A stretch of DNA of 64,000 nucleotides from a virus (taxonomy: Duplodnaviria; Caudoviricetes). Both the position numbers and the translations under genes were made by a program. Of this stretch, positions 14,722 through 43,571 are shown piece after piece. The stretch lies in IMG/VR virus record IMGVR_UViG_3300028840_001835. One strand, 5' to 3'. The notes under the pieces were generated by a model. The model made no database searches, was not told where the DNA came from, and saw only the letters and a list, made by a program, of their open reading frames with translations. Position 1 is the first letter of the stretch. Every line of letters begins with the position of its first letter.

Positions 14722-15171
14722 TCATTGTAAACCGTTCTTGAATAAAGTGTCCTTGATCGTCTTGACCGTTATATACTTTAGATGAGTACCTATCTCTATT
14801 CTATTTATCTTATTGTTACAAAAAACATAGGCCGCCCAATGAACATCCTTATTCCATCTACCAGCCCTTGCTTCCTTACGAATAAGAGCATGACCTTCGG
14901 GGAAAAAAGATTTTATATATGTCTCAATCAGTTCAAAACTCTTGAACGGTATGAAATCCTTTATCCGTTCCAACTTATATTTGTTCTCTTTATCAACCTC
15001 TATGATAAATTTAATATGATATGGCTCGGGTTTATATCCTCCATATCTTGCATAGTATTCTGGCCCGTACCTACCATAGTAAGGTTCTTTATCAAATTCA
15101 AGCCCACTTATAAAAAGATATTGACTTACATGCTCCTCGTGGTATGGAGGTATATTAAACACCCGTTTCAT
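14722..15171 (-). CDS. FLxG-family paralog
   Basis: QYLFISGL; tandem duplicate of 15155. Confidence 0.75.
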   Translation of the reverse strand: MKRVFNIPPYHEEHVSQYLFISGLEFDKEPYYGRYGPEYYARYGGYKPEPYHIKFIIEVDKENKYKLERIKDFIPFKSFELIETYIKSFFPEGHALIRKEARAGRWNKDVHWAAYVFCNNKINRIEIGTHLKYITVKTIKDTLFKNGLQ

Positions 15172-15580
15172 CTACGCCTCCTAAGATTATCCCAACGGTT
15201 TCCAATCTCTCTCTCAATCTCTCAAGGGTTAGGTACTTCAGAGCGTCACTGACCTCTATCCTGTTGATCCTCTTGTTGTGATATATGTACATCACTATCC
15301 CACATCCTCTCTCCCGGTTGACCAATATATCACCGGGTGGGAACTGTTCCTGCAAAAACTTTTCAAGCGAACGGGAGGACTTGAATGGTATGAAATCCTT
15401 TATCCGCTCCAGCTTGGGCCTGTCCTCCTTCTTCACATCAAGCTCGAAGATGGCCTCTATAATTCTTTCGCCCCAGTATTCCTTTCTTATTTTCTTATTG
15501 ACAATCTTTATGCCACTAATGAACAGATACTTCTCTGCCTTCTCTGCATTGTACCCAGGGATACTAAACACACGTTTCAT
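15155..15580 (-). CDS. FLxG-family paralog
   Basis: KYLFISGI; shares LERIKDFIPFKS and NRIE with 14722. Confidence 0.75.
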   Translation of the reverse strand: MKRVFSIPGYNAEKAEKYLFISGIKIVNKKIRKEYWGERIIEAIFELDVKKEDRPKLERIKDFIPFKSSRSLEKFLQEQFPPGDILVNRERGCGIVMYIYHNKRINRIEVSDALKYLTLERLRERLETVGIILGGVDETGV

Positions 15581-15602
15581 TTAAACGTCCTTTCAATTGA
15601 AA

Positions 15603-15677
15603 TGGTAGGTCTGCAGGGAGTCGAACCCCGATCTGAACCTTAGGAGGGTACTATTCTATCCATTGAACTACAGACCC
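15603..15677 (-). tRNA. tRNA-Arg(CCU)
   Basis: Loop CT-CCT-AA, CCA. Confidence 0.92.
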
Positions 15678-15684
15678 ATATATT

Positions 15685-15760
15685 TGGTACCCCTGGAAGG
15701 AATCGAACCCTCATCCTGGCGTTAGAAGCGCCGTATTCTAATCCGTTGAACTACAGGGGC
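15685..15760 (-). tRNA. tRNA-Arg(UCU)
   Basis: Loop CT-TCT-AA, CCA. Confidence 0.92.
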
Positions 15761-15766
15761 TAGTTC

Positions 15767-15843
15767 TGGGGTGACCGGCCGGAATCGAACCGGCATTGCT
15801 AGAGTCACAGTCTAGTATCTTAACCAATTAGATGACAGTCACC
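15767..15843 (-). tRNA. tRNA-His(GUG)
   Basis: G-1/C73, loop CT-GTG-AC, CCA. Confidence 0.92.
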
Positions 15844-15960
15844 ATGCACAACGTCCGTGATAAAGAACCCTAACACAAGATGCCATTTCCCGCATCCGAG
15901 GTTTGACCGCCGGGACCATTCATCCTCGACCTTTTGGTGCCTTATCAAAGAGAAACTTTT

Positions 15961-16037
15961 TGGTGACCAGGGTGGGGGTCGAACCCACACTGAACAGGGT
16001 CTAAGCCTGCTCCCTCTTCCAGTTGGGGTACCTGGCC
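15961..16037 (-). tRNA. tRNA-Leu(UAG), short variable arm
   Basis: 75/77 identical to tRNA-Leu(UAA) at 9130. Confidence 0.88.
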
Positions 16038-16461
16038 ATTAAATCTCGTTTAATTCAAATTCAACTATCTTTATGTCAGAAGGATTAATACTTCCAAATC
16101 TTATACCAATATTTATCTTTCCCTGGGTCACCTGAAAGTTGGCAGCTCCTCTCGTCTTGTATAGGTTACCAAACTCCTTCCTGAACCCACCGTTGGTGAA
16201 GAAGGTATTATCCTTCGTGTTCTTGATTGAATAAACAATCATACCAATCCTTTCGGTTACAATCTCTCCACCAAGGTCCAGTTCTTATACTCATCAGGGT
16301 TTGCCCATGTGCTTGTGCCATCGGCATGCTGGACCTTAAAATACTCTTTGGAGGGCGAGGTCTCTATCACCTTCACCTCTTCCATGTTCCAGTTCGGATA
16401 CCTCTTGATTAACATCCGACCTTTTATATCCGTTGCTTTCATTCAATCCTCATTCAAAAGT

Positions 16462-16536
16462 TGGTACCCCCGCTAGGTAACGATCCCAGTTCCCCGAGTT
16501 AAAAGCCCGGTGCATCACCATTAATGCTTCGGAGGC
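16462..16536 (-). tRNA. tRNA-Lys(UUU)
   Basis: Loop CT-TTT-AA; T loop ATCGTTA; CCA. Confidence 0.88.
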
Positions 16537-16542
16537 ATAAAT

Positions 16543-16755
16543 CTATCTTAATGTATCTCCCACATTGTACAGGCTACACGGCGCAACGAAATAAACATAA
16601 TTAATCGGATCGCCAACGGCCCATATATCAAATGAACAAAGGTCCCTTTTAAGATCCTCAATTTCCTTGTTGTTTATGATAAGAGGATGTACTAATTGAT
16701 CACCACATCCCAATAACATCACGCCTAACATAAGTAGGTAAATAAACTTTTTCAT
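16543..16755 (-). CDS. lipoprotein
   Basis: Signal peptide with lipobox LLG-C. Confidence 0.7.
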   Translation of the reverse strand: MKKFIYLLMLGVMLLGCGDQLVHPLIINNKEIEDLKRDLCSFDIWAVGDPINYVYFVAPCSLYNVGDTLR

Positions 16756-16797
16756 GTTCGTTCCTTTCTTGTTTAGTTTTCTTGTTTAGTATATATC

Positions 16798-16873
16798 TGG
16801 TGCCAGCGCCCAGAATCGAACTGGAATCTTCCGGGCTTCAACCGGACGAGTTGACCACGTTTTCCACACTGGC
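16798..16873 (-). tRNA. tRNA-Phe(GAA)
   Basis: Loop TT-GAA-GC, CCA. Confidence 0.88.
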
Positions 16874-16884
16874 ATAAAACTCTT

Positions 16885-16962
16885 TGGAGGCTCCGGTGGG
16901 AATCGAACCCACTACCAACTGGTTAACAACCAGACGCTCTACTCCGGTGAGCTACAGGAGCC
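16885..16962 (-). tRNA. tRNA-Asn(GUU), bulged acceptor, U73
   Basis: Loop TT-GTT-AA, CCA. Confidence 0.75.
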
Positions 16963-16973
16963 TTATTGAATGA

Positions 16974-17246
16974 TTAATATAATATATCTGCGGTCCTTGC
17001 TTCTTTCTTATCAATAAGATGTTGCCCAAGTTTATCAAGTTCACCTTTTCTTTTTGATCTTGTTTCTATTCCTGTTTTTCTATCAAAGGATTGTTCCTTT
17101 GTAATTATTTCCTTTGGGGTTAATTTAATTATCTTAACCCAGCCCATCTGTTCATCATCTGATGAAAAAATCTCAACGTATTTTCCAACTTGTAATTTTT
17201 CATCAGTAAAATCTTTACTCTCATTTAGATATTCTTTAAAATCCAT
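16974..17246 (-). CDS. putative capsid-internal protein (CTS-like)
   Basis: MDFKEYLNE; TATAAATA at 17265-17272. Confidence 0.7.
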   Translation of the reverse strand: MDFKEYLNESKDFTDEKLQVGKYVEIFSSDDEQMGWVKIIKLTPKEIITKEQSFDRKTGIETRSKRKGELDKLGQHLIDKKEARTADILY

Positions 17247-17272
17247 ACAACCTCCGTTTAAGAATATTTATA

Positions 17273-17347
17273 TGAAGCCCCAGGGCAGGAGTCGAACCGC
17301 CGTCGCCTGAGTACGAAACAGGCATTCTACCGTTGAACTACAAGGGC
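17273..17347 (-). tRNA. tRNA-Thr(CGU), ends TCA
   Basis: Loop TT-CGT-AC. Confidence 0.75.
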
Positions 17348-17355
17348 ATAACATC

Positions 17356-17429
17356 TGGAGCTGGAGGACAGAATCGAACTGTCGTCCCCTGCATACCACG
17401 CAGGTGTTCTACCATTTAACTACACCAGC
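17356..17429 (-). tRNA. tRNA-Thr(GGU)
   Basis: Loop GT-GGT-AT, CCA. Confidence 0.88.
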
Positions 17430-17436
17430 AAACATC

Positions 17437-17512
17437 TGGTGGAGAGTATCAGAATCGAACTGATCACACAAACCTTGCAAAAGTTCGTCGCCGCCTTGGC
17501 ACATGACCCCCC
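17437..17512 (-). tRNA. tRNA-Ala(UGC), second copy with atypical D arm
   Basis: G3:U70; loop TT-TGC-AA; CCA. Confidence 0.8.
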
Positions 17513-17519
17513 AAACTCT

Positions 17520-17595
17520 TGGAGCCGGTGAGAGGATTCGAACCCCCAATCTTCTCCTTACAAGGGAGCTGCATCGCCAATTATGCTACACCGGC
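17520..17595 (-). tRNA. tRNA-Thr(UGU)
   Basis: Loop CT-TGT-AA, CCA. Confidence 0.92.
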
Positions 17596-17602
17596 ATATA
17601 TC

Positions 17603-17676
17603 TGGTAGCGGTATGGGGAATCGAACCCCAGTCTGAAGGTTGAGGGCCTCCCGATCTACCACTGAACTATACCGCC
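17603..17676 (-). tRNA. tRNA-Glu(CUC), C33
   Basis: Same body as Glu(UUC) at 10319; loop CC-CTC-AA. Confidence 0.8.
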
Positions 17677-17874
17677 TCAAACTTGTCCTGTTTTATGAAG
17701 TTCAAGAACTACATAATCTTCAAATGTCTTTATATAGGGCAACTCTTTCGCCTCTTGACTTTTCTTAAACAGATTATAAGAATACTTTAGTTCTTTTTTC
17801 GATTTTAAATAAGACTGTTTGAATCTTTTATAAAAATCCTTATCATCCTCATTTACATATGTTCTCCAATCCAT
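17677..17874 (-). CDS. putative capsid-internal protein (CTS-like)
   Basis: MDWRTYVNE start. Confidence 0.6.
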   Translation of the reverse strand: MDWRTYVNEDDKDFYKRFKQSYLKSKKELKYSYNLFKKSQEAKELPYIKTFEDYVVLELHKTGQV

Positions 17875-17890
17875 ATGTTCTCCTTATATT

Positions 17891-17964
17891 TGGAGCGGGC
17901 GAGGGGAATCGAACCCCTGTCTACTGGACGGCAGCCAATCGTAATACCATTATACTACGCCCGC
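17891..17964 (-). tRNA. tRNA-Gly(GCC)
   Basis: Loop CT-GCC-GT, U73, CCA. Confidence 0.92.
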
Positions 17965-17972
17965 TTGAAACT

Positions 17973-18047
17973 TGGCCAGGCCACGGGGAATCGAACCCCG
18001 ATCTGCAGGTCGACAGCCTACTGTTCTAACCGTTGAACTATGACCCG
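17973..18047 (-). tRNA. tRNA-Asp(GUC)
   Basis: Loop CT-GTC-GA, G73, CCA. Confidence 0.9.
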
Positions 18048-18054
18048 AAAACTT

Positions 18055-18129
18055 TGGAGTACCGACTCGGAATCGAACCGAGGATCACTGGGTTGCAGCC
18101 AGCCGCCTTAACCACTTGGCCACCGGTAC
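18055..18129 (-). tRNA. tRNA-Cys(GCA)
   Basis: Loop CT-GCA-AC, U73, CCA. Confidence 0.92.
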
Positions 18130-18153
18130 TTGAATTCTCTTTTAATATTTATA

Positions 18154-18247
18154 TGGTGGGCAGGGAGGGAGTCGAACCCCCGATGTTCACCGCAAAGGGA
18201 AGTGGGTTACAGCCACTCACAGCACAACCGACAGCTGCCTCCTACCC
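18154..18247 (-). tRNA. tRNA-Tyr(GUA)
   Basis: Loop CT-GTA-AC, long variable arm, CCA. Confidence 0.88.
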
Positions 18248-18595
18248 AAATAAAAAACACCAAATCCTTCTTACAGTTCCTACAATAAATGTTATCTTCT
18301 TAAAATATTTACATTTAAAATTCTTATTTAATTGTCCTTGTCCTTGAATTCTTTTCTTTGTTTTTATTATGCCACTTATTTTATCTATCCGACTTCCAAA
18401 CTCCCAACATACTGGATGTTGACACATGGGAATCGTTCCTACATCAGAAACCAGATCAAAACTTAAATCTCTAATTCCTGTTGTATATGTAAAGCCGTTA
18501 ATAAATTCATCCGCTACACTCGATTCAGTACCGTAATAATACCAACAGTCTTTACAAAATTTCAATTTCTTTTCAATATTCATTTTTAAATAACT

Positions 18596-18672
18596 TGGTC
18601 AGGGAGGTGGGATTTGAACCCACGACCTTTTGGTTCCAAACCAAACGACCTACCAGACTGGCCTACACCCTG
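18596..18672 (-). tRNA. tRNA-Pro(UGG)
   Basis: Loop TT-TGG-AA, CCA. Confidence 0.9.
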
Positions 18673-18681
18673 TTTCAATTC

Positions 18682-18760
18682 TGGTCTGGGTTGAGGGATT
18701 CGAACCCCCACGATATTCTTGGCCCCAAACCAAGTGGCCTTCCTAATGGCCCTAACCCAG
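18682..18760 (-). tRNA. tRNA-Pro(UGG), second copy
   Basis: Loop TT-TGG-GG, CCA. Confidence 0.88.
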
Positions 18761-18770
18761 AAAAACTTTA

Positions 18771-18885
18771 TAGATGTGAATGCAGGACTTGAGCCTGCAT
18801 CTCCCATGTTCTCAGATTCCTGTCATCTCGAAGTGACCACCTCCCAGTTGTTCAACTGGGTATGCTACCATTTACACCACAATCT
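18771..18885 (-). pseudogene. tRNA-like element with ~40-nt enlarged variable region
   Basis: D arm GTGT-AAATGGTA-GCAT; stem CCCAG/CTGGG; T arm GCAGG-CTCAAGT-CCTGC; imperfect acceptor, no CCA. Confidence 0.55.
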
Positions 18886-18930
18886 TCTAGCGAACATTTG
18901 CCCCGAAGGCGGGGTGTTCTCCCTATTAAA

Positions 18931-19332
18931 CTAATTCACATCTAAAATTCTATGCACCTCATCCTCATGTATTGGTGAGGTTAAAAACTCGTCCAGCTCC
19001 TTATTATTTATGTTATCACTAGAGTACCCAACTATGAACTCGTCCCCAGTGACCTTAAAGGAGTGCATCTGCTTGTACGTTCGGATCATTCCTGACAGGT
19101 CTATCTTTAATTCTCTCTCCAGATCCAGGGAGAGGAATATGTAATCGTAACCATCGTACCCATTGACCTGCAGGTACATCAAATGTTTAAAGTAACTCAA
19201 CCAATCCTGCGCCTCTTCGATGTTCACCTCGTGATCAGCCCAATCGTATCTTTCCAAGGCCGACCTTAGAACCGCCTTATTTTCAGGATTGCTATCAACC
19301 AACAATACGTTGATGATATCCCCGGTTTGCAT
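18931..19332 (-). CDS. CheY-like (pseudo-)receiver domain protein
   Basis: NVLLVDSN...LRSALE...YDYIFLSL; Ser at the phospho-acceptor Asp position. Confidence 0.6.
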   Translation of the reverse strand: MQTGDIINVLLVDSNPENKAVLRSALERYDWADHEVNIEEAQDWLSYFKHLMYLQVNGYDGYDYIFLSLDLERELKIDLSGMIRTYKQMHSFKVTGDEFIVGYSSDNINNKELDEFLTSPIHEDEVHRILDVN

Positions 19333-19351
19333 GATTCCCCCATGTTATGAT

Positions 19352-19427
19352 TGGCTGGCAGGGAGGGCTTCGAACCCCCATCTTCCCGGTTAACAGCCGA
19401 GCGCATTACCAGTTATACTACCTGCCA
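19352..19427 (-). tRNA. tRNA-Asn(GUU)
   Basis: Loop CT-GTT-AA, G73, CCA. Confidence 0.92.
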
Positions 19428-19577
19428 TTTATTATATATATAATTCTAGGAGGTTTTATGTTTGAACACGCTAATGAGATAACCCCTCAGCTTCCAACCC
19501 AGAAAAAAACCAACCAGAAGAGCTATCAGTAATGGTAGCATTTTTATCCTTTCTGTTTAGTCAAGCATATTTGATTA

Positions 19578-19606
19578 ATTGTACTATACTTTTAAACCGC
19601 TGTCAA
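19578..19606 (-). promoter_or_regulatory. sigma70-type promoter heading the tRNA array
   Basis: TTGACA-N17-TACAAT. Confidence 0.8.
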
Positions 19607-19644
19607 GTATTTTTTTAAATTTATTGGACTTTTATTTTAGAAAA

Positions 19645-19990: not shown

Positions 19991-19999
19991 CTATTTTAT

Positions 20000-20422
20000 T
20001 TATAAATCAAATATATGAGGCAGATCAGTTCTCATGTAACGCCACCTCTTATATTTCTTTTCGTATTCCTGAAACGTCATCTCCCTAAAGGGTATGGACT
20101 TTTCATCGAAAAACCTTTTCTTTAATTTTATGAGTGATTCATACTGATACCCAAAATATACCTGAGGAAGTTCATCAGACTCGTTTCTACAATATCTTTT
20201 AAACCGATCAAATTCATTTTGATTTGCCATTGTCCTTGTCCAGAATATGAATGGGTTCTCGGTCGTCCCACCAAAATCCAAAACAAAGAAACAGCGCCAT
20301 TTTTCCTCGGGCGTATTCCATGTGTGTTTGTCTGCCTCATCCTTGGTCAGATAGAAATAATTATTACCAGCCATCCAGGCCTTGAGATATGCGACACCGA
20401 AAAATCTAACATCTATAATCAT
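20000..20422 (-). CDS. EFFG-family paralog
   Basis: DVRFFGVAY...FFVLDFGG..PFIFW...LK.RFF...IP. Confidence 0.75.
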   Translation of the reverse strand: MIIDVRFFGVAYLKAWMAGNNYFYLTKDEADKHTWNTPEEKWRCFFVLDFGGTTENPFIFWTRTMANQNEFDRFKRYCRNESDELPQVYFGYQYESLIKLKKRFFDEKSIPFREMTFQEYEKKYKRWRYMRTDLPHIFDL

Positions 20423-20437
20423 TCAAAATCCTTTCAC

Positions 20438-20869
20438 TCAAACATGCGGAACCGTGTTTTGACAGAAATCCAATTTCTTATATCTCCTCTCCCATTCTTT
20501 AATGGTGAGATTCCTAATCGGTACATCTTTTGTGCCAAACAATTTGAGTTTTAGTTCCATTATCATTTTCTCTACGTTACTAAATTTGCTATAACATTTA
20601 TGTATCTTATCACGATTGATCAATGCAACGCCCGCATTCTTACAGATGTTTCTCATCTTCTTTATAGTACCTGGCGTTCTATATCTCATCGACCAGAACA
20701 GATGTGGTTGTGTTGTTCCGGCACCAAAATCCATAACAAAATAACAGTACCAATACTTCTTAAAAGCAGGACCTTCTTGCTTGTCAGATACATCCTTGCC
20801 AGCCCAGGCATTCTGCGATGCCCAACACTCTAGGATTGCCAGACCAAAAAACTCAACATCTATCTTCAT
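20438..20869 (-). CDS. EFFG-family paralog
   Basis: DVEFFGLA...YFVMDFG...HLFW...LKLKLFG...PI. Confidence 0.75.
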   Translation of the reverse strand: MKIDVEFFGLAILECWASQNAWAGKDVSDKQEGPAFKKYWYCYFVMDFGAGTTQPHLFWSMRYRTPGTIKKMRNICKNAGVALINRDKIHKCYSKFSNVEKMIMELKLKLFGTKDVPIRNLTIKEWERRYKKLDFCQNTVPHV

Positions 20870-20885
20870 TTGAAAAACCTTTCAC

Positions 20886-21332
20886 TTAAATTTCATTTGG
20901 TATTTTCTGCATTGTATCTCTTAAATTTCTATACCTATTTAACCATTCATCCTTGGTCAGATATTTTATAGGTATTGGTTCGTTTCCAAATTTCATCTTT
21001 AAGGTCGTCACCATTTTCTCTGCGATGGAAAGCTTGCCTTGTGTATTCAATGATCTCTGATTCATTAATGCCAACCCCGGGTTCTCACATATGGCGATTA
21101 ATTTCCTTACCGGATCTTGATTGGCGTACTTCTTTGACCAGAACAATATAGGGCTCTTGGTATTCCTTCCAAGATCCAGAACAAAATAACAACGACTAAT
21201 CACCTGAATCGGACCATAGTAATTATGTTTATGCTGTTCAGCACTCTCCTCTGTATCATAAACCTCATAATTACCAAACTGACCATATCCTTTATATATG
21301 GCAAACCCAAAAAACTCAACGTCTAAATTCAT
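20886..21332 (-). CDS. EFFG-family paralog
   Basis: DVEFFGFA...YFVLDLG...PILFW...LKMKFG..PIPI. Confidence 0.75.
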   Translation of the reverse strand: MNLDVEFFGFAIYKGYGQFGNYEVYDTEESAEQHKHNYYGPIQVISRCYFVLDLGRNTKSPILFWSKKYANQDPVRKLIAICENPGLALMNQRSLNTQGKLSIAEKMVTTLKMKFGNEPIPIKYLTKDEWLNRYRNLRDTMQKIPNEI

Positions 21333-21589
21333 GTCTTATCCGCTTTCCTTCTTAACACGATATAATGTCTATGTTTTGAACACCAGAACACCAGATCCCC
21401 AATACCCATATATATGATATTGGTCGAGACCACATATCCATTATCCAACACCAATATTGATAGATCCTTCTCCGTTGGAACAATATGAAACGTGGAAATC
21501 CTGCCAATATATTCCTTGCCACATTCCTTTTTGATACATCCCATGAACAATAGGGCGGACAACAAAAACATATACATCATTCCTCGCAT
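21329..21589 (-). CDS. lipoprotein
   Basis: Lipobox FMG-C. Confidence 0.65.
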   Translation of the reverse strand: MRGMMYMFLLSALLFMGCIKKECGKEYIGRISTFHIVPTEKDLSILVLDNGYVVSTNIIYMGIGDLVFWCSKHRHYIVLRRKADKT

Positions 21590-21942
21590 TCAAACACCTT
21601 CTTTATCTTGTAATAATCAAATGTAATCTCTTTAAATTCAAAAGCATCCTGAAGTATCCTCATCACCTGCAACCATTGTTTGAATGTATATATGTGATAC
21701 CTATAAACATCATTGACTATTATGAAATCCAGGTTCTTCAGTAAAAACAACTTCCTTGCCTTAATGATCCCCTCAGCCAGTTCCAGAGTTCTATACTCAA
21801 ACGGGTTCTTCTCAAAGAATGAAAATATAATAAAACCCTTATCCTCCCTGGTCTTGGCTATGTCATAACCCCAAGACGAAAAATTTGATTTAGTATCCGC
21901 CATGAGCCTATTCTCAATCAACATCAGAAATGACTTACTCAT
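21577..21942 (-). CDS. FLxG-family paralog
   Basis: RKLFLLKNL. Confidence 0.6.
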   Translation of the reverse strand: MSKSFLMLIENRLMADTKSNFSSWGYDIAKTREDKGFIIFSFFEKNPFEYRTLELAEGIIKARKLFLLKNLDFIIVNDVYRYHIYTFKQWLQVMRILQDAFEFKEITFDYYKIKKVFECEE

Positions 21943-22343
21943 AATCCGGCATTTTTATTGACTTTCCAATCCTCGGTGATACTCTTGACATTAAACGGAG
22001 AGAAATATTCATCTATAAACTGTTGCTCCCCATAATGTTTATCCCCATGTTCATTGATGAAGGTTGTCTTATCCATGAACTGATATATCTTTCCCTCTTT
22101 GGCCTCGATTGTACCATCTGACATAACTAGGGTCCTTTTACACATCTTTTTAAACTCTGACGACATCCACTCTCCTCCATCGACCGCCGTTAATCTTTGG
22201 ATTGGATCTTATCTCCGACGCATGCTTGTCGCAGTAGTAGAATGTCTTATATCTTCCACTAACTTGTCGAACCTTGTAGTTCTCCCACATGACCCTTGCC
22301 ACACATCTGCGAGTATGACCAATATTACTACACGATCTCCGTC

Positions 22344-22649
22344 TCATCTATTCCTTATATCACTAAGTGCGTGTTTTATATCCTTCTCCCTAAACTTTTC
22401 CCCAATCTGATCTTCCACGATCTTGACAAACCGCTTGAATGTCTTTTTCGATCTGAACTCAATCCTTACATACTGTTTAGTCACCCTATATTTCATGCCC
22501 GAGATAAGAATCATCCTTTCAACCAATTCAAAGAAACTAAGGTTCATATCTATATGTGGAATAATTCTTTTTCCATACAATATATGAAATTGATTCTTTC
22601 CAGAATCTGTGTTCACACAGGTTATTAACTTTCTATTTTTTAAAAACAT
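22344..22649 (-). CDS. FLxG-family paralog
   Basis: ERMILISGM. Confidence 0.65.
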   Translation of the reverse strand: MFLKNRKLITCVNTDSGKNQFHILYGKRIIPHIDMNLSFFELVERMILISGMKYRVTKQYVRIEFRSKKTFKRFVKIVEDQIGEKFREKDIKHALSDIRNR

Positions 22650-22659
22650 AATCTATCTC

Positions 22660-23157
22660 TTAATTCTCATCTCGAAACCATGGATGATCAAGACTTTTAG
22701 GCCTACTATTTTTCCTAGCCTCATAATCCTCCGAGACAAACTTTTTGTATCCATCGGGATATATTATAATTATCCTCTTTCCTTTCTTAACCGCATATCT
22801 TATGGTTGCCCATGTTCCCGATCTCAATCTATTGGCAATACCATCGGGAGTTGCGATCAGAAGTGATGAACCATCCACTATATCACGATTACGATCAAGA
22901 TATGGTTTTTCATCAAGTGTTACAACCCTTTCATTCTTGGGTTCCTTGAATCTCTTTCTTGCGACAACAGGTGGATGTAATATCACTCTATTGTTCTCAT
23001 TGATGGCAAGGGTTATTAGATACGCCTCATGGTCAGCACCAATACATTGACCATTTCTCAAGGTTATATCCTGATTAGCTATCATATCGGAAAAGACCTT
23101 TAGTTGCTTTTTAGTCATACCCTTCTGGGTTCCTGTGAAACCAATAGTAACCATCAC
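22660..23157 (-). CDS. SLOG-superfamily (DprA/Smf/YspA-like) protein
   Basis: IGFTGTQKG...GQCIGAD...YLDRNRDIVD...SGTWATIRYA. Confidence 0.8.
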   Translation of the reverse strand: MMVTIGFTGTQKGMTKKQLKVFSDMIANQDITLRNGQCIGADHEAYLITLAINENNRVILHPPVVARKRFKEPKNERVVTLDEKPYLDRNRDIVDGSSLLIATPDGIANRLRSGTWATIRYAVKKGKRIIIIYPDGYKKFVSEDYEARKNSRPKSLDHPWFRDEN

Positions 23158-23501
23158 ATATTCTCAAATATTTCCTCGCCGGTATCCTTTCTCCAGACCC
23201 GACCAGAGCCATTCATCTTCATGGTGATTCTATTCTTGGGAAACAAGTTTTCAAGAAAAACGATTCCATGAAGTAGATGACCAAGTATCGGAACCTCACC
23301 TGCACGGTCGAGGGTATCCTTTATCTTATTCACCTTAAGATAGTCCTCCATGGTGAGAAGGTTGGAGCCACACTTAGGACATTCCATGTTGACCCATTTA
23401 TAATATTCATCGAGAGGAACCTCCATGTTCTCCCAATTACATCCTTTGGCATCACATTGAATACCAGCGACCTTCATAACCTTTTCAGATAACGGTCTCA
23501 T
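23154..23501 (-). CDS. zinc-finger phage protein
   Basis: IQCDAKGC...ECPKCGSNLLT.ED. Confidence 0.7.
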   Translation of the reverse strand: MRPLSEKVMKVAGIQCDAKGCNWENMEVPLDEYYKWVNMECPKCGSNLLTMEDYLKVNKIKDTLDRAGEVPILGHLLHGIVFLENLFPKNRITMKMNGSGRVWRKDTGEEIFENM

Positions 23502-23536
23502 GATTCATCCTTTCTTTTTTATTTCCGTTCAACACA

Positions 23537-23565
23537 AATATAGTAAAAAGTTTTCTATCTGTCAA
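23537..23565 (-). promoter_or_regulatory. sigma70-type promoter
   Basis: TTGACA-N17-TATATT. Confidence 0.75.
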
Positions 23566-23884
23566 CCATTTCATCTAACCTCTCCTTCACCAAACTAATA
23601 TCATTTTTGTCAAGAGTACATCTATAACCAGGCTCAAAACAATAGATAAATTCATCAAAAGCCTCTGTTGTTGGGAATTGAAAAATATATGTTCCTGGCT
23701 CTTTAATATATTTTAAACCTTTAAGAAATACCAATTTAGAAAAACCAAATTCAGGATCTTCATACCAACTTCTGGCGATTGTAATATAAGGAATCTCCCT
23801 ATCAAAAGATACATCGAAACAAGGTCCTGTTGAACCGACCGTTATGTCAGAACGATTCTTCATGTCACCAATCCATAATTTCAA
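23555..23884 (-). CDS. FLxG-family paralog
   Basis: SKLVFLKGL. Confidence 0.75.
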   Translation of the reverse strand: MKLWIGDMKNRSDITVGSTGPCFDVSFDREIPYITIARSWYEDPEFGFSKLVFLKGLKYIKEPGTYIFQFPTTEAFDEFIYCFEPGYRCTLDKNDISLVKERLDEMVDR

Positions 23885-24149
23885 TTATTTCATTTTGTGA
23901 ATCTATTTCAAATTCAATATCCCAGACCTTTTCCAGTAAATCAACCACAATGACAAACTCTTCCGGAGTCTTGATGAATATACTACAATCTTTACCAAAT
24001 CGTTTTTCCTCTATCTTTGATAGAAATATTAGATTATAAAATTTAATATTTCTTCCAATCGACCATTGAAAATTCAAAAGAAGATATCCATCCTCTTTAC
24101 GAAAAGCAATATGATAATCACCATCCGTGGTATGTAACTTTAAATTCAT
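23865..24149 (-). CDS. FLxG-family paralog
   Basis: YNLIFLSKI. Confidence 0.6.
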   Translation of the reverse strand: MNLKLHTTDGDYHIAFRKEDGYLLLNFQWSIGRNIKFYNLIFLSKIEEKRFGKDCSIFIKTPEEFVIVVDLLEKVWDIEFEIDSQNEIIEIMDW

Positions 24150-24383
24150 TTATTAGAATGTAAAAGATATACCCTCGGACTGGTCCACCTTACCACGTTC
24201 CACGGGTGCGAAACTGGCACCGTTCCACGTCATCTGCTCATATGTGCCATTCGGTGAGAGTCTTATTATATCGAGCAGTCCATTCTTGACGGCTTTAATA
24301 TCTCCCTCAGGTATCGCTTGATGTGAGACCTGTTTAATCGTTCCATCGTCAAAAACATAAATGTATAACATACCTTCCTCCTT

Positions 24384-24677
24384 TTACCATGCCATCTCTG
24401 TTATCACCTTTTGGATATCTTCCACTCTACTTTTATCATTTAGATGTTTGTCTGAGAATTGAATAAACTTTAAAAACTCCTCACGGTTGAAAATGCTAAC
24501 ATACGTCCAACCTTTACGTTTAAATAATTTATAATTCGCAAGAAATAACCACTTTATTATTCTATCGTGTGTACCTTGATTCCGTGAAGCAATCCTAATT
24601 CTTAATCGTTTACTATTCACCTTTCGAAATAGTGTACGATTAGTTTTGCCGTGTACATGAAATGTTTTCATCGCCAC
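24384..24677 (-). CDS. FLxG-family paralog
   Basis: IKWLFLANY. Confidence 0.65.
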   Translation of the reverse strand: MAMKTFHVHGKTNRTLFRKVNSKRLRIRIASRNQGTHDRIIKWLFLANYKLFKRKGWTYVSIFNREEFLKFIQFSDKHLNDKSRVEDIQKVITEMAW

Positions 24678-24964
24678 CCCATCGCCTGTGACAAGGCCAC
24701 CACATCATTGGCCATTGTGTTAGTCTTGAATTCATGATGAAATGAAAATATCTTAAAGAACTTTCTAAGCTCGTTTTCGTTATAGACAAAAAACCTAGTC
24801 AACCCCTCCTGCCTGAATGATTCAATACCAGATAGAAACAACAACCTCAATAACTGGACATGGATGTTACTTATATCAATGTATATGTAACCCTCCAGAT
24901 GTCCAGTATAAGAGAAGTCCGTTAGATGAGGATCTCTTGCATAGAATTTACAAGCGTCCCTCAT
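24668..24964 (-). CDS. FLxG-family paralog
   Basis: LRLLFLSGI. Confidence 0.75.
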   Translation of the reverse strand: MRDACKFYARDPHLTDFSYTGHLEGYIYIDISNIHVQLLRLLFLSGIESFRQEGLTRFFVYNENELRKFFKIFSFHHEFKTNTMANDVVALSQAMGWR

Positions 24965-25361
24965 CCGTTCTGTTCTTTCAATGTTGGTTGTAAACCTTGA
25001 CTATATGCCACATTCAAGAGATACATATACTCTGTCCATATTGTCTTGGGTTTCCATGCATCTGCAGACAACCACGGCGTTCTATTACAACCAACTCTAC
25101 CAGTGTCCAAACGAATAGGACAACCAATACAATGATCTTTATTGGATATATTCTGGTCATGCACAAACACGTTACAATAAGCACAATCCTCACCGCGTTT
25201 TGAGAATCCACCATTAACGGTTGACCAGAGCTTAACCTCGCAACCCGTCTCCTTCGCCTCTTCGGAGAGAATCACATTTCTTCTCCAATGTTTGAGAACC
25301 CTACGGGTAAGAGAACGCATTCTGCGTTCCCCTACCTTTCGCGGCTTTTTTGTTTTATCCT

Positions 25362-25658
25362 TCATTCCCATCCCCATGCTCTTTGAGCACGCCAGGCGCT
25401 ATCATTACAATTCGGTTTCAACCTAATCGGCTCCATGGTCTCAAACCCGAATATGATTACCGGGGCCACTATGGTCTCGACCAGGATGACGCCCCAGACG
25501 ATGTTACCAATAGATGCCGAATAATCGACACAGTCCGATCTGTACTCTCCAGAATCGAACAGGCCATAGGTCTCATACTTGAAACCATCAAGCACCTTTG
25601 GATCGGCGCATGCTGTAAGCAGGACCACGGCAACCAGAATGGTTAAAATCTTTTTCAT
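25362..25658 (-). CDS. phage lipoprotein
   Basis: Lipobox LTA-C; YETYG...NIVWGVILVETIVAP. Confidence 0.75.
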   Translation of the reverse strand: MKKILTILVAVVLLTACADPKVLDGFKYETYGLFDSGEYRSDCVDYSASIGNIVWGVILVETIVAPVIIFGFETMEPIRLKPNCNDSAWRAQRAWGWE

Positions 25659-25682
25659 TTCTTTCTCCTTTGTTAAGTGTGG

Positions 25683-26051
25683 TTACCAGTTAATCTTTTT
25701 TATGAATGTTTCAATGAGTTTCTTATCATATTTTATTTTTTCATTATTAAATCCTACATGGCAAGCGTAACAATATTTCCTAAGATCATCTGCAGTCTTA
25801 ATGTATACGATTGTCATATCCTCCGCTTCTTCATGTTCAAGATTTGATAAAAAGAACATTCTTGAAAATGTACAATCCGACTTTACCCATGAACTATTAA
25901 CATAGGTTTCCCAATGATCCCGCTTGGGATCAAACCTAAGATCAATAGTGACAGATAGACCGATTGATACCTCCACTGAGAAATCTGGATCAGATCGTTC
26001 CTCCGATCTAAGTGCTTCAAAGAAACCGTTGGACATTAAACTCCCACTCAA
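25683..26051 (-). CDS. FLxG-family paralog
   Basis: SRMFFLSNL. Confidence 0.65.
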   Translation of the reverse strand: MSGSLMSNGFFEALRSEERSDPDFSVEVSIGLSVTIDLRFDPKRDHWETYVNSSWVKSDCTFSRMFFLSNLEHEEAEDMTIVYIKTADDLRKYCYACHVGFNNEKIKYDKKLIETFIKKINW

Positions 26052-26292
26052 AAGGTCCTGTCAAGACCATACCATTATCGGCCATCACATCATATAAGGT
26101 CTTTACAATCTTCATATCAAATTCAAAACAATGTTCATACCAAGACTTTGTAAATTTGTTTGTCGGTCTAATACCAAGAAGAAATAATTGTCGAAACAAT
26201 CTTGCTCTCATATCAAGATATGTCATATGTGCCATAATTCCACCTGGCTGTGGATATGAACATTTACCCAACAGTTTAGACATACCTCTCAT
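26017..26292 (-). CDS. FLxG-family paralog
   Basis: FRQLFLLGI. Confidence 0.7.
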   Translation of the reverse strand: MRGMSKLLGKCSYPQPGGIMAHMTYLDMRARLFRQLFLLGIRPTNKFTKSWYEHCFEFDMKIVKTLYDVMADNGMVLTGPFEWEFNVQRFL

Positions 26293-26552
26293 TCTCCTTC
26301 ATCGTAATACTGGTCACTCTCTGGAACAAAGCAAAGTTCATCCAACCTTCGTATCATCTTCTTATCTCTTTCGGACTCTTTGTTGTATAGGACGACATAT
26401 GTGGTGGCCGTTCCCACCCATCCATGAAGACCAGTCAGCAAAACAAGACTGACAAATCTCTCCATGTTATATGTTCTATATCTTTTCATCCATCGTTCCA
26501 TATATCTATCCCAGTTTCGGAGCCTCACGATCTGAAAAATATATGACATCAA
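26289..26552 (-). CDS. FLxG-family paralog (WLSG subgroup)
   Basis: SLVLLTGLHGW...Y..ES.RD..MI.RL. Confidence 0.7.
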   Translation of the reverse strand: MMSYIFQIVRLRNWDRYMERWMKRYRTYNMERFVSLVLLTGLHGWVGTATTYVVLYNKESERDKKMIRRLDELCFVPESDQYYDEGE

Positions 26553-26754
26553 TCACTGGATATGCATTCTTATTCCACTCCTGAATAGCCAGGTCGTTCA
26601 ATCTTTTCAACATCCACTTTTCCCTCTCGGACCTTGAATCATATCTCACAGAGAAAGAGACAGAGTTCTCTTCCCACCCCTTCAATCCGGATAACCAGAC
26701 CAATCTTCTGAAGGCGGTTATATCATAAACTCTAAATGTCCTAATCCTCTTCAT
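26506..26754 (-). CDS. FLxG-family paralog (WLSG subgroup)
   Basis: FRRLVWLSGLKGW. Confidence 0.75.
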   Translation of the reverse strand: MKRIRTFRVYDITAFRRLVWLSGLKGWEENSVSFSVRYDSRSEREKWMLKRLNDLAIQEWNKNAYPVIDVIYFSDREAPKLG

Positions 26755-26756
26755 AT

Positions 26757-26972
26757 CTAGGGTAACCCGGAGTCCTCATCAACAAAAATGGCAAGGGTAT
26801 CTAATCTCTCTATCATCTTCGTATCCCTTTTAGAATCCTTATCATAACGAACAGCAAATGTATAGTAACTTTCCCTCCATCCCTTCAGCCCAGACAACCA
26901 GACCAATCTTCTAAAATTTTCCATGTCCGCCGCCAGATCGCCGGTCCTATAGACCCTCACCCGCTTGTTCAT
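26757..26972 (-). CDS. FLxG-family paralog (WLSG subgroup)
   Basis: FRRLVWLSGLKGW. Confidence 0.75.
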   Translation of the reverse strand: MNKRVRVYRTGDLAADMENFRRLVWLSGLKGWRESYYTFAVRYDKDSKRDTKMIERLDTLAIFVDEDSGLP

Positions 26973-26979
26973 GATCCCC

Positions 26980-27276
26980 CTAGGGCACCCAGATATGATC
27001 ATCCCGTGCCCTCATCTCTTCCTTAAATGATCTCAATCTTCTTAGGGCCCCCAGACAGTTTCGATGTTCGATCTTCCCGTGAACATATCGGATCATAAAC
27101 CTTCCCTTCCATCCACTCTCCAGATGCCGCATACCCGAAAGAAACATATATGCCTTCGCCCTCTTTGAATCAGGACCCATGTTGACTGTGAAAATCATAT
27201 CCATATCATTTCCTTCTATACAAATTTTTGAACCAAAGCCTAGTATCGGGGTGATAACTAAATCTTCTCCTTCCAA
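26980..27276 (-). CDS. FLxG-family paralog
   Basis: KAYMFLSGM. Confidence 0.7.
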   Translation of the reverse strand: MEGEDLVITPILGFGSKICIEGNDMDMIFTVNMGPDSKRAKAYMFLSGMRHLESGWKGRFMIRYVHGKIEHRNCLGALRRLRSFKEEMRARDDHIWVP

Positions 27277-27583
27277 TTATCCTTATCTTGATCGTCTTTA
27301 AAATAAACTCCAGCTGTTTCCTATCAACAAGATAACATGGATCGTCATCCTTATCAATCGCAACCTGTTCAATATTCTTTAGAAAAAGCAAAGTATTCAT
27401 AGGGCTATCCTGCGGTAGACAGACCAAGAACTTATGATGGCTCTTATAGAACGTCAGAATTATAAACCCTCGATGCATTGTCCCTTTCCTTTTCATAAAA
27501 TGAAGTGCACCAACAAGATTCGCTGAATCATGCGTATTAAAACTTTCCAAAATTCGTTCTCCTGTTTCTAAGAAGATATCCAA
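27206..27583 (-). CDS. FLxG-family paralog
   Basis: NTLLFLKNI...DDDPCYLVD. Confidence 0.7.
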   Translation of the reverse strand: MDIFLETGERILESFNTHDSANLVGALHFMKRKGTMHRGFIILTFYKSHHKFLVCLPQDSPMNTLLFLKNIEQVAIDKDDDPCYLVDRKQLEFILKTIKIRIIGRRRFSYHPDTRLWFKNLYRRK

Positions 27584-27780
27584 TGTACCAGGCTATGCCT
27601 TCGCAGGGCATGATGCTTCGCTCGGTCCTTCTTATCATCAAGATCCAGACCCTCCACCACAAAGACTGAGGGAAGTGTTTCTGGTACCACGAACCATGCT
27701 TTCAATTGTGAGAGAAAAAGAACCTTCTCAAATGCCTCCCGTCGGTCTGGCATGACCCTATAACGAACATCATATTTCAT
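27568..27780 (-). CDS. FLxG-family paralog
   Basis: EKVLFLSQL. Confidence 0.65.
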   Translation of the reverse strand: MKYDVRYRVMPDRREAFEKVLFLSQLKAWFVVPETLPSVFVVEGLDLDDKKDRAKHHALRRHSLVHWISS

Positions 27781-27788
27781 TTTTCTTG

Positions 27789-28110
27789 TTCCAGAATCCT
27801 AAGTTATCATACCCGTTCCAAGATTCTCTCAAAAAACAGGCCATTAAGGCATACCCGTATAAGAATAACAATCCTTGATCAATGACTTTAATAATCTGGT
27901 ATGGGTTCTATTCCCTGGATCATAAATGACATGATAAGACCCTCCTCCAGATGCCCGAAACTCTATACCAGAGATGAATAACATCTTTCTCATACCTTCG
28001 CCTTTCAGAATATCAATAAATATACTAATGTGGAAGGTGGCCTCCTTATATCCGGGTCTTACCTTAATCATTTATTTTTGTTCCATATTCCAGAATCCTA
28101 AGTTATCATA
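27789..28110 (-). repeat. 23-bp direct repeat (27789-27811, 28088-28110), promoter/leader-like
   Basis: TATGATAACTTAGGATTCTGGAA just upstream of two consecutive start codons. Confidence 0.85.
27844..28071 (-). CDS. FLxG-family paralog
   Basis: RKMLFISGI. Confidence 0.75.
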   Translation of the reverse strand: MIKVRPGYKEATFHISIFIDILKGEGMRKMLFISGIEFRASGGGSYHVIYDPGNRTHTRLLKSLIKDCYSYTGMP

Positions 28111-43568: not shown

Positions 43569-43571
43569 TTG

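What the first reader, a model, noticed from the sequence alone, without database searches (positions are those of the whole stretch)
14722..28071. Left arm: 17 more FLxG paralogs on the opposite strand, with recent and old duplications
Seen: 15 members at 21577-28071 and a displaced pair inside the tRNA array (14722/15155, sharing LERIKDFIPFKS). Triplet 26289/26506/26757 shares FRRLVWLSGLKGW-type segments (recent duplication). Left-arm 27206 (DDDPCYLVDRKQLEFILK) most resembles right-arm 36285 (DGDFCYLLDWNKLRMFLK). Inference: ongoing birth-and-death expansion with exchange between arms, as expected under host-phage conflict.
Basis: partly seen in the sequence, partly recalled or inferred. Interest (0 to 1): 0.65.

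Follow-up and report, generated by a model that had tools for sequence, protein, structure and literature searches.

The report
Left-arm copies of orphan phage family
An uncultured 202-kb marine T4-like phage carries, beside its tRNA genes, 17 more very old and very diverged copies of a small protein that it also repeats about 27 times on the opposite strand. The family is real and almost unique to this phage, but its job, probably binding host molecules early in infection, is untested.

Summary
A profile built only from the 25 firm right-arm copies finds 16 of the 17 left-arm candidates ahead of every other minus-strand ORF. Eight are firm members. Nine (the triplet, the tRNA-array pair, 21577, 26017, 26980, 27568) match only around the motif helix and are probable members. 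A left-versus-right profile comparison gives 96% probability (E 4.5e-9), so the stated refutation test fails.

AlphaFold models show a small beta-alpha-beta-beta-alpha(-beta) sandwich with the L-L-F-L-x-G motif in helix 1. No catalytic residues are conserved. No Pfam, PHROG, PADLOC or clear PDB relative was found, and only four outside homologues turned up among 1.84 billion representative proteins.

"Recent duplication" is not supported: even the closest pair (55% identity) has saturated synonymous sites, with pN well below pS.

The arms are mostly separate lineages. The left arm mostly has F-L/I-S-G and shorter proteins; the right arm mostly has F-L-K/R-G. There is one clear cross-arm link (27206 to 36285/36927).

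Both arms lack the T4 late-promoter motif and start from near-identical outward sigma-70-like promoters.

An earlier follow-up in this scan reported this family on the right arm of the same genome. This report adds the structure of the left arm. The function is inferred only.

The parts
27844..28071 (-). Family member, firm (75 aa, short form, motif MLFISGI); first family gene of the left arm
   Evidence: HMM E 9.6e-10; right-arm-only profile E 0.001
27568..27780 (-). Probable member (70 aa, VLFLSQL)
   Evidence: HMM E 0.037; hhalign score 19.5 against controls 6-14; its best partners are the triplet and 36285
27206..27583 (-). Family member, firm (125 aa from TTG, or 114 aa as called in public data, 27206-27550). 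K-type motif LLFLKN and C-terminal W helix, as in the right-arm long forms
   Evidence: HMM E 6.6e-18; BLAST to 36927 E 5e-9 and to 36285 E 1e-8; AlphaFold model pLDDT 75.8, about 90 over residues 50-110; public gene call
26980..27276 (-). Probable member (98 aa from TTG; more likely 74 aa from the ATG at 27204, which removes the overlap with 27206); motif YMFLSGM
   Evidence: HMM E 0.041; hhalign score 21.4 over 49 columns; right-arm-only profile E 0.016
26757..27002 (-). Probable member, triplet copy 1 (81 aa, LVWLSGL)
   Evidence: 55% identical to 26506, E 1.6e-18; triplet profile against family hhalign 62%, E 7e-5; 9 of that profile's top 9 hits are family ORFs
26506..26754 (-). Probable member, triplet copy 2 (82 aa, LVWLSGL)
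26289..26552 (-). Probable member, triplet copy 3 (87 aa from TTG; 70 aa from the ATG at 26501); motif LVLLTGL
   Evidence: 43% and 37% identity to the other two copies, E 2e-12 and 1e-10; right-arm-only profile E 0.014
26017..26292 (-). Weakest candidate (91 aa, QLFLLGI)
   Evidence: HMM E 0.37; hhalign score 19.7 over 17 columns; not retrieved by the right-arm-only profile below E 1.5; 5 of its top 8 phmmer hits are family members
25683..26051 (-). Family member, firm (122 aa, or 117 aa as called); ends at the conserved Trp
   Evidence: HMM E 3.9e-15; right-arm-only profile E 2.6e-6; alignment A1 column 215
24668..24964 (-). Family member, firm (98 aa, LLFLSGI); ends one residue after the conserved Trp
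   Evidence: HMM E 7e-17; right-arm-only profile E 1.6e-7
24384..24677 (-). Family member, firm (97 aa, WLFLANY); ends at the conserved Trp
   Evidence: HMM E 8.1e-14; right-arm-only profile E 3.6e-7
23865..24149 (-). Family member, firm (94 aa, LIFLSKI); ends at the conserved Trp
   Evidence: HMM E 6.4e-12; right-arm-only profile E 0.005
23555..23884 (-). Family member, firm (109 aa, K-type LVFLKGL)
   Evidence: HMM E 4.1e-17; best partner is right-arm 40538
22344..22649 (-). Family member, firm (101 aa, MILISGM)
   Evidence: HMM E 3.6e-17; right-arm-only profile E 4e-4
21577..21942 (-). Probable member (121 aa, LFLLKNL); last family gene of the left arm
   Evidence: HMM E 0.011; left-firm profile E 2.8e-4; hhalign score 23.6 over 44 columns
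15155..15580 (-). Probable member, pair copy 1 (141 aa): N-terminal family-like unit (YLFISGI in helix 1) plus an extra C-terminal alpha/beta domain; lies inside the tRNA array
   Evidence: Right-arm-only profile E 0.0014. AlphaFold pLDDT 83.5, with strand, helix 9-21, two strands and helix 51-63, then a second domain. Residues 1-65 match ferredoxin-like domains at Z 7.0-7.8
14722..15171 (-). Probable member, pair copy 2 (149 aa, YLFISGL); its start overlaps the end of 15155 by 17 nt
   Evidence: 36% identical to 15155, E 5e-26; HMM E 0.004
28665..28696 (-). Sigma-70-like promoter (TTGACA, 16 nt, TATATT) at the head of the left transcription unit; a near-identical inverted twin heads the right arm at 33078-33109
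   Evidence: 11/12 consensus match; 32-nt inverted repeat, 91% complementary (I3)
23537..23565 (-). Internal sigma-70-like promoter (TTGACA, 17 nt, TATATT) inside the left arm
   Evidence: 11/12 consensus match; shares only the two hexamers with the head promoters
27789..27811 (-). Copy 1 of an exact 23-nt repeat, 8 nt upstream of the start of 27568
   Evidence: Two exact copies in the window, none in 100 shuffles; (D12)
28088..28110 (-). Copy 2 of the exact 23-nt repeat, 16 nt upstream of the start of 27844

Best explanation
The left arm is one half of a single, old, lineage-specific gene family in an uncultured 202.5-kb marine T4-like phage.

What the proteins are (models and alignments): each copy is 70-150 aa and is built on a compact beta-alpha-beta-beta-alpha(-beta) sandwich. 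The hydrophobic L-L-F-L-x-G motif forms the buried face and the C-cap of helix 1. Everything else varies: the N-terminal extension, the sheet surface and the C-terminus.

How the family arose (shown): it grew mainly by local tandem duplication within each arm, long enough ago that synonymous sites are saturated. The copies have since been kept under purifying selection. The left arm is largely its own sub-lineage, with Ser at the motif's x position and shorter proteins. A few members (27206 clearly; 23555 less so) are related to right-arm types. One diverged pair sits in the tRNA array.

When it is expressed (inferred from sequence motifs): both arms are read outward from a GC-richer core by near-identical sigma-70-like promoters and contain no T4-type late promoter. 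They are therefore probably made by the host RNA polymerase early in infection.

What it does (inferred, untested): with a conserved core, no conserved polar or catalytic residue and variable surfaces, the proteins most likely act as a diversified set of non-enzymatic binders. Each would target a different host molecule, for host takeover or defence neutralisation.
For: One family:
- A right-arm-only HMM retrieves 16 of the 17 left candidates (E 1.6e-7 to 0.33) before any other minus-strand ORF.
- Left-firm against right profile: hhalign 96%, E 4.5e-9.
- Reciprocal profiles of the triplet and of the pair hit family members preferentially.

Fold:
- The 27206 model has pLDDT of about 90 over residues 50-110, with order strand, helix 61-68, strand, strand, helix 88-102, strand.
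- The 15155 model has pLDDT 83.5 and the same order in residues 1-63.
- Residues 1-65 of 15155 superpose on ferredoxin-like, ACT and EF-G domain V folds at Z 7.0-7.8, rmsd 1.4-2.4 A.

No enzyme signature:
- No column is 90% conserved apart from the start Met; only the motif and one Trp reach consensus.
- There is no family-wide Pfam, PADLOC or PHROG match.

Old but maintained: pS is 0.73-0.95 against pN 0.27-0.39 for the five closest pairs.

Local duplication and arm-specific lineages.

Early-type expression:
- TATAAATA occurs 14 times in the window (4.9 expected) but never between 20005 and 47041.
- Strong sigma-70-like promoters head both arms, and the two head promoters are 91% identical inverted twins.

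Orphan status: 36 hits among 1.84 billion representatives, of which 31 are this phage's own proteins and 4 are credible outside members.
Against: - There are no expression data, and the promoter calls are consensus matches only.
- The function has no direct support. The fold is among the commonest small folds, and Z values below 8 may reflect only a shared arrangement.
- Nine of the 17 left-arm ORFs match only across the motif helix and the next 20-50 residues.
- The alignment used for the 15155 model contained the family itself, so that model shows compatibility and is not independent proof.
- Selection for diversity could not be tested, because synonymous sites are saturated and no population variants exist.
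- The pair lies in a region with late-promoter motifs, the nearest upstream at 17265. It may therefore be expressed at a different time from the arms.
Confidence: 0.55

Rival explanations
1. Some or all of the nine marginal ORFs (triplet, pair, 21577, 26017, 26980, 27568) are unrelated small proteins. On this reading they share only a hydrophobic helix ending in Gly with the family, by convergence or chance, so the left arm holds about 8 members and not 17.
For: - Their HMM E-values are 0.003-0.4 against only 323 ORFs.
- hhalign probabilities are 22-62% over 17-49 columns.
- A loose version of the motif occurs in about 14 non-family ORFs.
- The phylogeny is a star and cannot place them.
- The pair carries an extra C-terminal domain that no other member has.
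Against: - All of them outrank every control ORF in three different profile tests.
- Their own profiles find family members first.
- Seven of the nine sit between firm members on the same strand.
- The 15155 model places the motif in helix 1 of the same strand-helix-strand-strand-helix unit.
- 27844, a firm member, links to the triplet and the pair at E 0.03-0.05.
Confidence: 0.2
2. The family consists of nucleic-acid-binding regulators. On this reading, these small ferredoxin-like proteins (an RRM-, ACT- or MotA-like fold) bind phage or host DNA or RNA to tune transcription or translation, and do not target host proteins.
For: - The fold is of the type used by RRM and ACT domains.
- There is a weak match to the DNA-binding C-terminal domain of T4 MotA (Z 3.7-4.1, 76 residues, rmsd 3.2 A).
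- Most members are basic (31 of 44 have pI above 8).
Against: - The basic charge is no different from that of other small ORFs of this phage (65% have pI above 8; Fisher p 0.67).
- A MotA score of about Z 4 is within the noise level stated by the tool.
- No conserved surface residues that could form a common nucleic-acid site were seen.
- More than forty regulators would be hard to rationalise.
Confidence: 0.15
3. The copies are remnants of a selfish mobile gene, such as a degenerate LAGLIDADG-type homing endonuclease domain, that multiplied by its own mobility and not for the phage's benefit.
For: - The top Foldseek rows for the 27206 model include LAGLIDADG meganucleases such as I-OnuI and I-CreI (E 0.08-0.4).
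- The order helix-strand-strand-helix-strand-helix resembles a LAGLIDADG half-domain.
Against: - Those rows have TM 0.23 and rmsd about 13 A.
- No LAGLIDADG chain appears among the 50 rows (Z 3.0 and above) listed from the Foldseek-independent search.
- No acidic residue is conserved after the motif helix.
- There is no Pfam match.
- pN well below pS indicates maintained proteins.
Confidence: 0.03
4. The proteins are packaged virion or internal proteins delivered with the DNA, like the capsid-targeted proteins that other reports of this scan describe elsewhere in this genome.
For: Other follow-up reports of this scan describe many capsid-tagged proteins in this phage. This is a lead only.
Against: - Neither arm has a late-promoter motif.
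- The N-termini are the most variable part of the family and share no tag.
Confidence: 0.03

Closest known systems
Hyperplastic regions of T4-like phages: blocks of small, fast-evolving ORFan early genes between core modules (Comeau, Arbiol and Krisch 2014, PMC4122927; Arbiol et al. 2010, PMC2839356)
   Same: - The host phage is T4-like.
- The genes are short and tightly packed, with no database relatives.
- They are driven by sigma-70-type promoters and lie beside the tRNA genes.
- No late promoters are present.
   Different: - Here most genes of the region belong to one paralogous family (about 44 copies), whereas hyperplastic regions hold unrelated ORFans.
- The repeated promoter-plus-stem-loop cassettes (PeSLs) said to shuffle those regions were not found. 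Internal promoters share only the two hexamers with the head promoters.
Lineage-specific tandem gene expansions in jumbo phages
   Same: Tens of tandem, highly diverged paralogues of unknown function in one large phage genome.
   Different: - I did not read the paper behind that note, so the comparison is by description only.
- This family is split into two divergently transcribed arms with twin promoters, plus a displaced pair.
- It has almost no relatives outside this one phage.
Multigene families at the variable genome ends of large eukaryotic DNA viruses (African swine fever virus MGF110/360/505; poxvirus host-range gene amplifications). From my own knowledge, not tested here
   Same: - Many diverged paralogues in two oppositely oriented blocks.
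- They are expressed early.
- They are thought to counter host defences.
   Different: The virus, the host and the protein fold are unrelated, and no homology exists. The resemblance is only an analogy for the proposed role.
Ferredoxin-like / ACT-like beta-alpha-beta-beta-alpha-beta domains (for example EF-G domain V, ACT regulatory domains, PII)
   Same: Same order of secondary structure elements. Residues 1-65 of the 15155 model superpose at Z 7.0-7.8, rmsd 1.4-2.4 A over 55-65 residues.
   Different: - No sequence similarity (3-18% identity) and no Pfam match.
- The 27206 model scores only Z 4.9 or below.
- The fold is very common, so it says nothing about function or descent.

Membership tests
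This phage's L-L-F-L-x-G family (defined here from the 25 firm right-arm copies) | Significant match to a profile built from right-arm copies only | tested here: met
   Seven left ORFs score E 1e-3 or better (24668, 27206, 24384, 23555, 25683, 22344, 27844), and 23865 scores 0.005. Left-firm against right profile: hhalign 96%, E 4.5e-9.
This phage's L-L-F-L-x-G family: the nine marginal ORFs | Significant match to the family profile | tested here: inconclusive
   E 0.0014-0.33 with the right-arm-only profile, and 26017 is not retrieved. hhalign probability is 22-62%. All nine rank above every control, but the similarity is confined to the motif region.
This phage's L-L-F-L-x-G family | Motif lies in helix 1 of a strand-helix-strand-strand-helix unit | tested here: met
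   27206: helix 61-68 between strand 51-55 and strands 73-76 and 82-86, then helix 88-102. 15155: helix 9-21 between strand 2-8 and strands 25-33 and 40-48, then helix 51-63. The 15155 alignment included family sequences. The triplet and the four single candidates were not modelled.
LAGLIDADG homing endonucleases | Conserved acidic catalytic residue at the end of the LAGLIDADG helix | tested here: not met
   The residues following the motif Gly are hydrophobic and then K/R/E/Q, with no conserved Asp or Glu.
LAGLIDADG homing endonucleases | Fold or sequence match to solved members or to Pfam models | tested here: inconclusive
   Foldseek E 0.08-0.4, TM 0.23, rmsd 13 A. None among the 50 rows listed from the wide search. 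No Pfam hit.
T4 MotA C-terminal DNA-binding domain | Structural match clearly above background | tested here: inconclusive
   Z 3.7-4.1, 76 residues, rmsd 3.2 A. This is within the range the tool describes as common for unrelated chains.
ACT / ferredoxin-like domains | Beta-alpha-beta-beta-alpha-beta topology and superposition on solved domains | tested here: inconclusive
   The topology fits. Z is 7.0-7.8 for 15155 residues 1-65 but 4.9 or below for 27206. No Pfam ACT match. This is a shared arrangement, and homology is not shown.
PeSL promoter/stem-loop cassettes of T4-like hyperplastic regions (PMC4122927) | The same composite promoter-terminator sequence repeated between the variable genes | tested here: not met
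   Eight strong promoter sites were aligned. Only the two head promoters (28696/33078) and the two core promoters (30381/30580) resemble each other beyond the hexamers.
T4-type early transcription unit | Sigma-70-like promoters present, late promoter TATAAATA absent, transcripts made early | tested here: inconclusive
   The motif evidence fits, but timing of expression cannot be tested with these tools.

The most novel reading that the evidence does not exclude
The roughly 44 copies would form a phage-encoded repertoire of single-domain binders on one minimal scaffold. Each copy would be tuned to disable a different host defence or takeover target. The two twin-promoter arms would be fired together at the start of infection, making the set a bacteriophage counterpart of the multigene families of large eukaryotic DNA viruses.
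Probability: 0.2. Interest if true: 0.75.

Novelty: new member of a known kind. Interest (0 to 1): 0.4.

Why it matters
Large phages devote much of their DNA to small early genes of unknown role. Here about 15 kb (23% of the window and about 7% of the genome) is spent on one orphan family. That gives an unusually large natural series of variants on one small scaffold.

If the copies are host-directed binders, they could be screened systematically for new inhibitors of bacterial defence or housekeeping proteins.

The left-arm analysis also corrects the picture of how the family evolved. It is an old, maintained, arm-structured family, and this analysis found no young copies that would mark an actively churning one.

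Tried and rejected
Searches for relatives and genomic context:
- Five scans of viral contigs found nothing: 27206, P0035, P0036, the 341-aa gene at 42238 and the flanking 20886 gene.
- Two scans of metagenome contigs found nothing.
- A megablast of 20000-30000 against the phage collection found nothing.
- No whole genome is held for this window, so copies outside the window could not be counted.
- A word-index search with the pair's profile found only the pair itself.

Phylogeny: the tree is a star. Only the triplet is a supported clade, and end branches are about 1.9 changes per site. It cannot date or order events.

Fold searches: the 27206 model has no clear PDB match (Foldseek best E 0.08; wide search best Z 4.9). 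ESM Atlas gave only low-score leads. A profile against PDB sequences gave nothing below E 0.29.

Ideas rejected:
- Charge as a clue to nucleic-acid binding: no different from background.
- An RNA structure as the cause of the conserved 33-nt block in the pair: z-scores -0.28 and 0.19.
- A PeSL-like repeated cassette as the vehicle of exchange between arms.
- Mirror-image colinearity of the two arms: the best cross-arm partners show no ordered correspondence (by inspection).
- P0034, a 216-aa outside 'hit' made of three near-identical repeats, was judged a false positive.

Full report
**Setting.** The window is part of a 202.5-kb contig. Its proteins are seen on three assemblies of essentially the same sequence. 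Other notes of this scan describe the genome as an uncultured marine T4-like phage. In agreement, the T4 late-promoter motif TATAAATA is enriched: 14 copies against 4.9 expected, a count no shuffle reaches. The window also holds 33 tRNA genes and a tmRNA gene.

Transcription diverges at about 30.3-30.6 kb. Minus-strand genes run from 30290 down to 20000. Plus-strand genes run from 30646 to about 47 kb. GC skew changes sign at the same place.

**Checking the observation.** All 17 ORFs exist as described.

- I built a family profile from 16 obvious right-arm copies and iterated it over all 323 ORFs of 50 aa or more in the window. It converged on 33 members: 25 on the plus strand and 8 on the minus strand (22344, 23555, 23865, 24384, 24668, 25683, 27206, 27844).
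- A profile made from the 25 right-arm copies alone ranks 16 of the 17 candidates directly behind its own training set and ahead of every other minus-strand ORF. Only 26017 is missed.
- The eight firm left copies, as a profile, match the right-arm profile at 96% probability (E 4.5e-9, 49 columns).

For the nine marginal ORFs the evidence is weaker but consistent.

- Their hhalign scores are 19.5-26.5, against 6-14 for 18 control ORFs or groups.
- Profiles of the triplet and of the pair find family members first. The triplet's top 9 hits are all family ORFs, and 6 of the pair's top 9 are firm members.

I therefore call these nine probable members, with 26017 the weakest.

Six other minus-strand ORFs inside the arm are not members. 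They include a SLOG/DprA-like protein, a zinc-ribbon protein and a lipoprotein.

**The specific resemblances.**

- The pair 14722/15155 is 36% identical (E 5e-26) and shares an identical 13-residue block.
- Within the triplet, identities are 55, 43 and 37%.
- 27206 matches right-arm 36927 (E 5e-9) and 36285 (47% over 51 aa, E 1e-8). Its best left-arm partner scores only 20 bits.

**What the protein looks like.** An AlphaFold model of 27206, made with the 33-member alignment, has mean pLDDT 75.8 and about 90 over residues 50-110. The order of elements is strand 51-55, helix 61-68, strands 73-76 and 82-86, helix 88-102, strand 108-110 and helix 116-123. The motif is the end of the first helix, with Gly as its cap.

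A model of 15155 has pLDDT 83.5 and shows the same unit at residues 1-63, with the motif in helix 9-21. A second alpha/beta domain follows that no other member has. Residues 1-65 superpose on ferredoxin-like domains (EF-G domain V, ACT, PII) at Z 7.0-7.8 and rmsd 1.4-2.4 A. By the tool's own calibration this shows a common arrangement and not kinship. The 27206 model has no match above Z 4.9.

Across the family no column except the start Met is 90% conserved. Only L-L-F-L-x-G and one Trp reach consensus. There is no family-wide match in Pfam, PHROGs or PADLOC, and no match to PDB sequences below E 0.29.

**How rare it is.** The 33-member profile was scored against 1.84 billion representative proteins and gave 36 hits.

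- Thirty-one are this phage's own proteins.
- One looks like a repeat artefact.
- Four, from contigs of 1.3-5 kb, are credible members carrying LFISGLKY or LFIKGIKY.

No relatives of the phage or of flanking genes could be fetched.

**Age and mode of duplication.** For the closest pair, 26757/26506, the proportion of synonymous differences is 0.88, which is saturated, against 0.27 for non-synonymous differences. Nucleotide identity is 60%. The other pairs tested are similar. None of the duplications is recent, and the copies have been kept as working proteins.

The tree is a star in which only the triplet is supported. Even so, a member's best partner is its immediate family neighbour in 8 cases against 2.0 expected (18 of 5000 shuffles reach 8). 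The best partner is in the same arm in 32 of 44 cases against 22.7 expected (44 of 5000 shuffles). Growth was therefore mainly by local tandem duplication.

**The arms are different lineages.**

- At the x position of the motif, 13 of 17 left copies have Ser, Thr or Ala, against 5 of 27 right copies (Fisher p 3e-4; p 0.0017 after collapsing the triplet and the pair).
- Lys or Arg is found in 19 of 27 right copies but in only three left ones: 27206, 23555 and 21577.
- The right-arm copies with a small residue are 40228 and four consecutive genes at the far end (43569-44966). These four follow an internal promoter at 43572.
- Left in-arm copies are shorter, with a median of 94 against 120 aa (p 2e-5).
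- Four left copies (23865, 24384, 24668, 25683) stop at or just after the conserved Trp, as does right-arm 41559.

Cross-arm relatedness is clear for 27206, weaker for 23555 (best partner 40538), and suggested for the distal right block. It is the exception and not the rule.

**Expression signals.** No TATAAATA lies between 20005 and 47041. The left unit is headed by a promoter-like site at 28696-28669 (11 of 12 consensus positions). Its 32-nt sequence is 91% identical to an inverted twin at 33078-33109 that heads the right arm. This confirms a lead from another first-reader note of this scan. Strong internal sites occur at 23565 (left) and at 40453 and 43572 (right), but they share only the two hexamers with the head promoters. 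Early, host-polymerase-driven expression of both arms is thus a reasonable inference, and it is untested.

**Interpretation.** The family combines a conserved buried helix, variable surfaces and ends, no catalytic signature, long-term purifying selection and early-type promoters. This fits a set of non-enzymatic binding proteins, most plausibly aimed at host molecules. I give the whole chain 0.55 confidence. Family unity is near certain for the eight firm copies, and the functional step is the weakest link.

The rival readings are set out in their own sections. They are convergence of the marginal ORFs, nucleic-acid-binding regulators, selfish endonuclease remnants and packaged proteins.

**Novelty.** The family itself is undescribed. 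The kind of thing it is, a lineage-specific expansion of small early genes in a large T4-like phage, is known (PMC4122927, PMC2839356). An earlier follow-up of this scan already reported the family from the right arm of this same genome, counting about 44 copies. This report adds:

- graded membership for the left arm;
- the common fold of the displaced pair;
- the evidence against recent duplication;
- the arm-specific sub-lineages.

Noticed in passing
window 14941-14973 and 15380-15412 (minus strand): Inside the pair 14722/15155, a 33-nt block is 32/33 identical at the DNA level, although synonymous sites elsewhere in the two genes are saturated (pS 0.82). It encodes the shared LERIKDFIPFK segment. 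No stable RNA fold was predicted. It may be a small gene-conversion tract or a sequence element read as nucleic acid.
   Followed up: partly
window 27789-27811 and 28088-28110 (minus strand): An exact 23-nt direct repeat (27/30 over 30 nt), with its two copies 299 nt apart. Each copy lies just upstream of the start codon of a family gene (27568 and 27844). It is the only long exact repeat in the left arm. It may be a regulatory site or the footprint of the tandem duplication unit.
   Followed up: partly
window 20000-21332 (three tandem genes, minus strand) and 47434-47889 (minus strand): A second, unrelated paralogous family of 140-151-aa proteins that start M-x-x-D/E-V-E-F-F-G. Identity is 36% (E 3e-31) between neighbours and 30% (E 2e-11) to the copy beyond the far end of the right arm. 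It has no Pfam or PHROG match. Copies sit just outside both arms.
   Followed up: partly
window 28072-28300: A GC-rich stretch lies between the left head promoter and the first family gene. It holds repeated GACCCAGACCC-type words and a doubtful 57-aa ORF. The whole core from 28 to 34 kb has 47-50% GC, against 36-41% in the arms.
   Followed up: no
window 30353-30381 (minus strand) and 30580-30608 (plus strand): Back-to-back promoter-like sites at the strand switch share the extended -10 region TGTTATAATTATAGTA. They form a second twin pair, inside the twin pair that heads the arms.
   Followed up: partly
window 22660-23157 (minus strand): A 165-aa non-family gene inside the left arm has a weak SLOG/DprA-like match (Pfam E about 0.03) and matches phrog_289, 'GTP-binding domain' (E 2e-8).
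   Followed up: no
window 25362-25658 and 21329-21589 (minus strand): Two small predicted lipoproteins (signal peptide with a lipobox Cys) are embedded in or next to the left arm. Only the signal region of the first resembles Cor-type superinfection-exclusion proteins.
   Followed up: no
window 14638-14718 (minus strand): Rfam calls a tRNA here (51 bits) that ARAGORN did not list. It directly abuts the end of gene 14722. Another report of this scan describes it as an Ala-type tRNA with an insertion in the anticodon loop.
   Followed up: no
window 43569-44966 (plus strand): The last four firm or probable right-arm copies carry the left-arm-type small residue in the motif. They follow a strong internal promoter-like site at 43572-43600 and the 341-aa non-family gene at 42238-43263. 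This may be a block with a separate history.
   Followed up: partly
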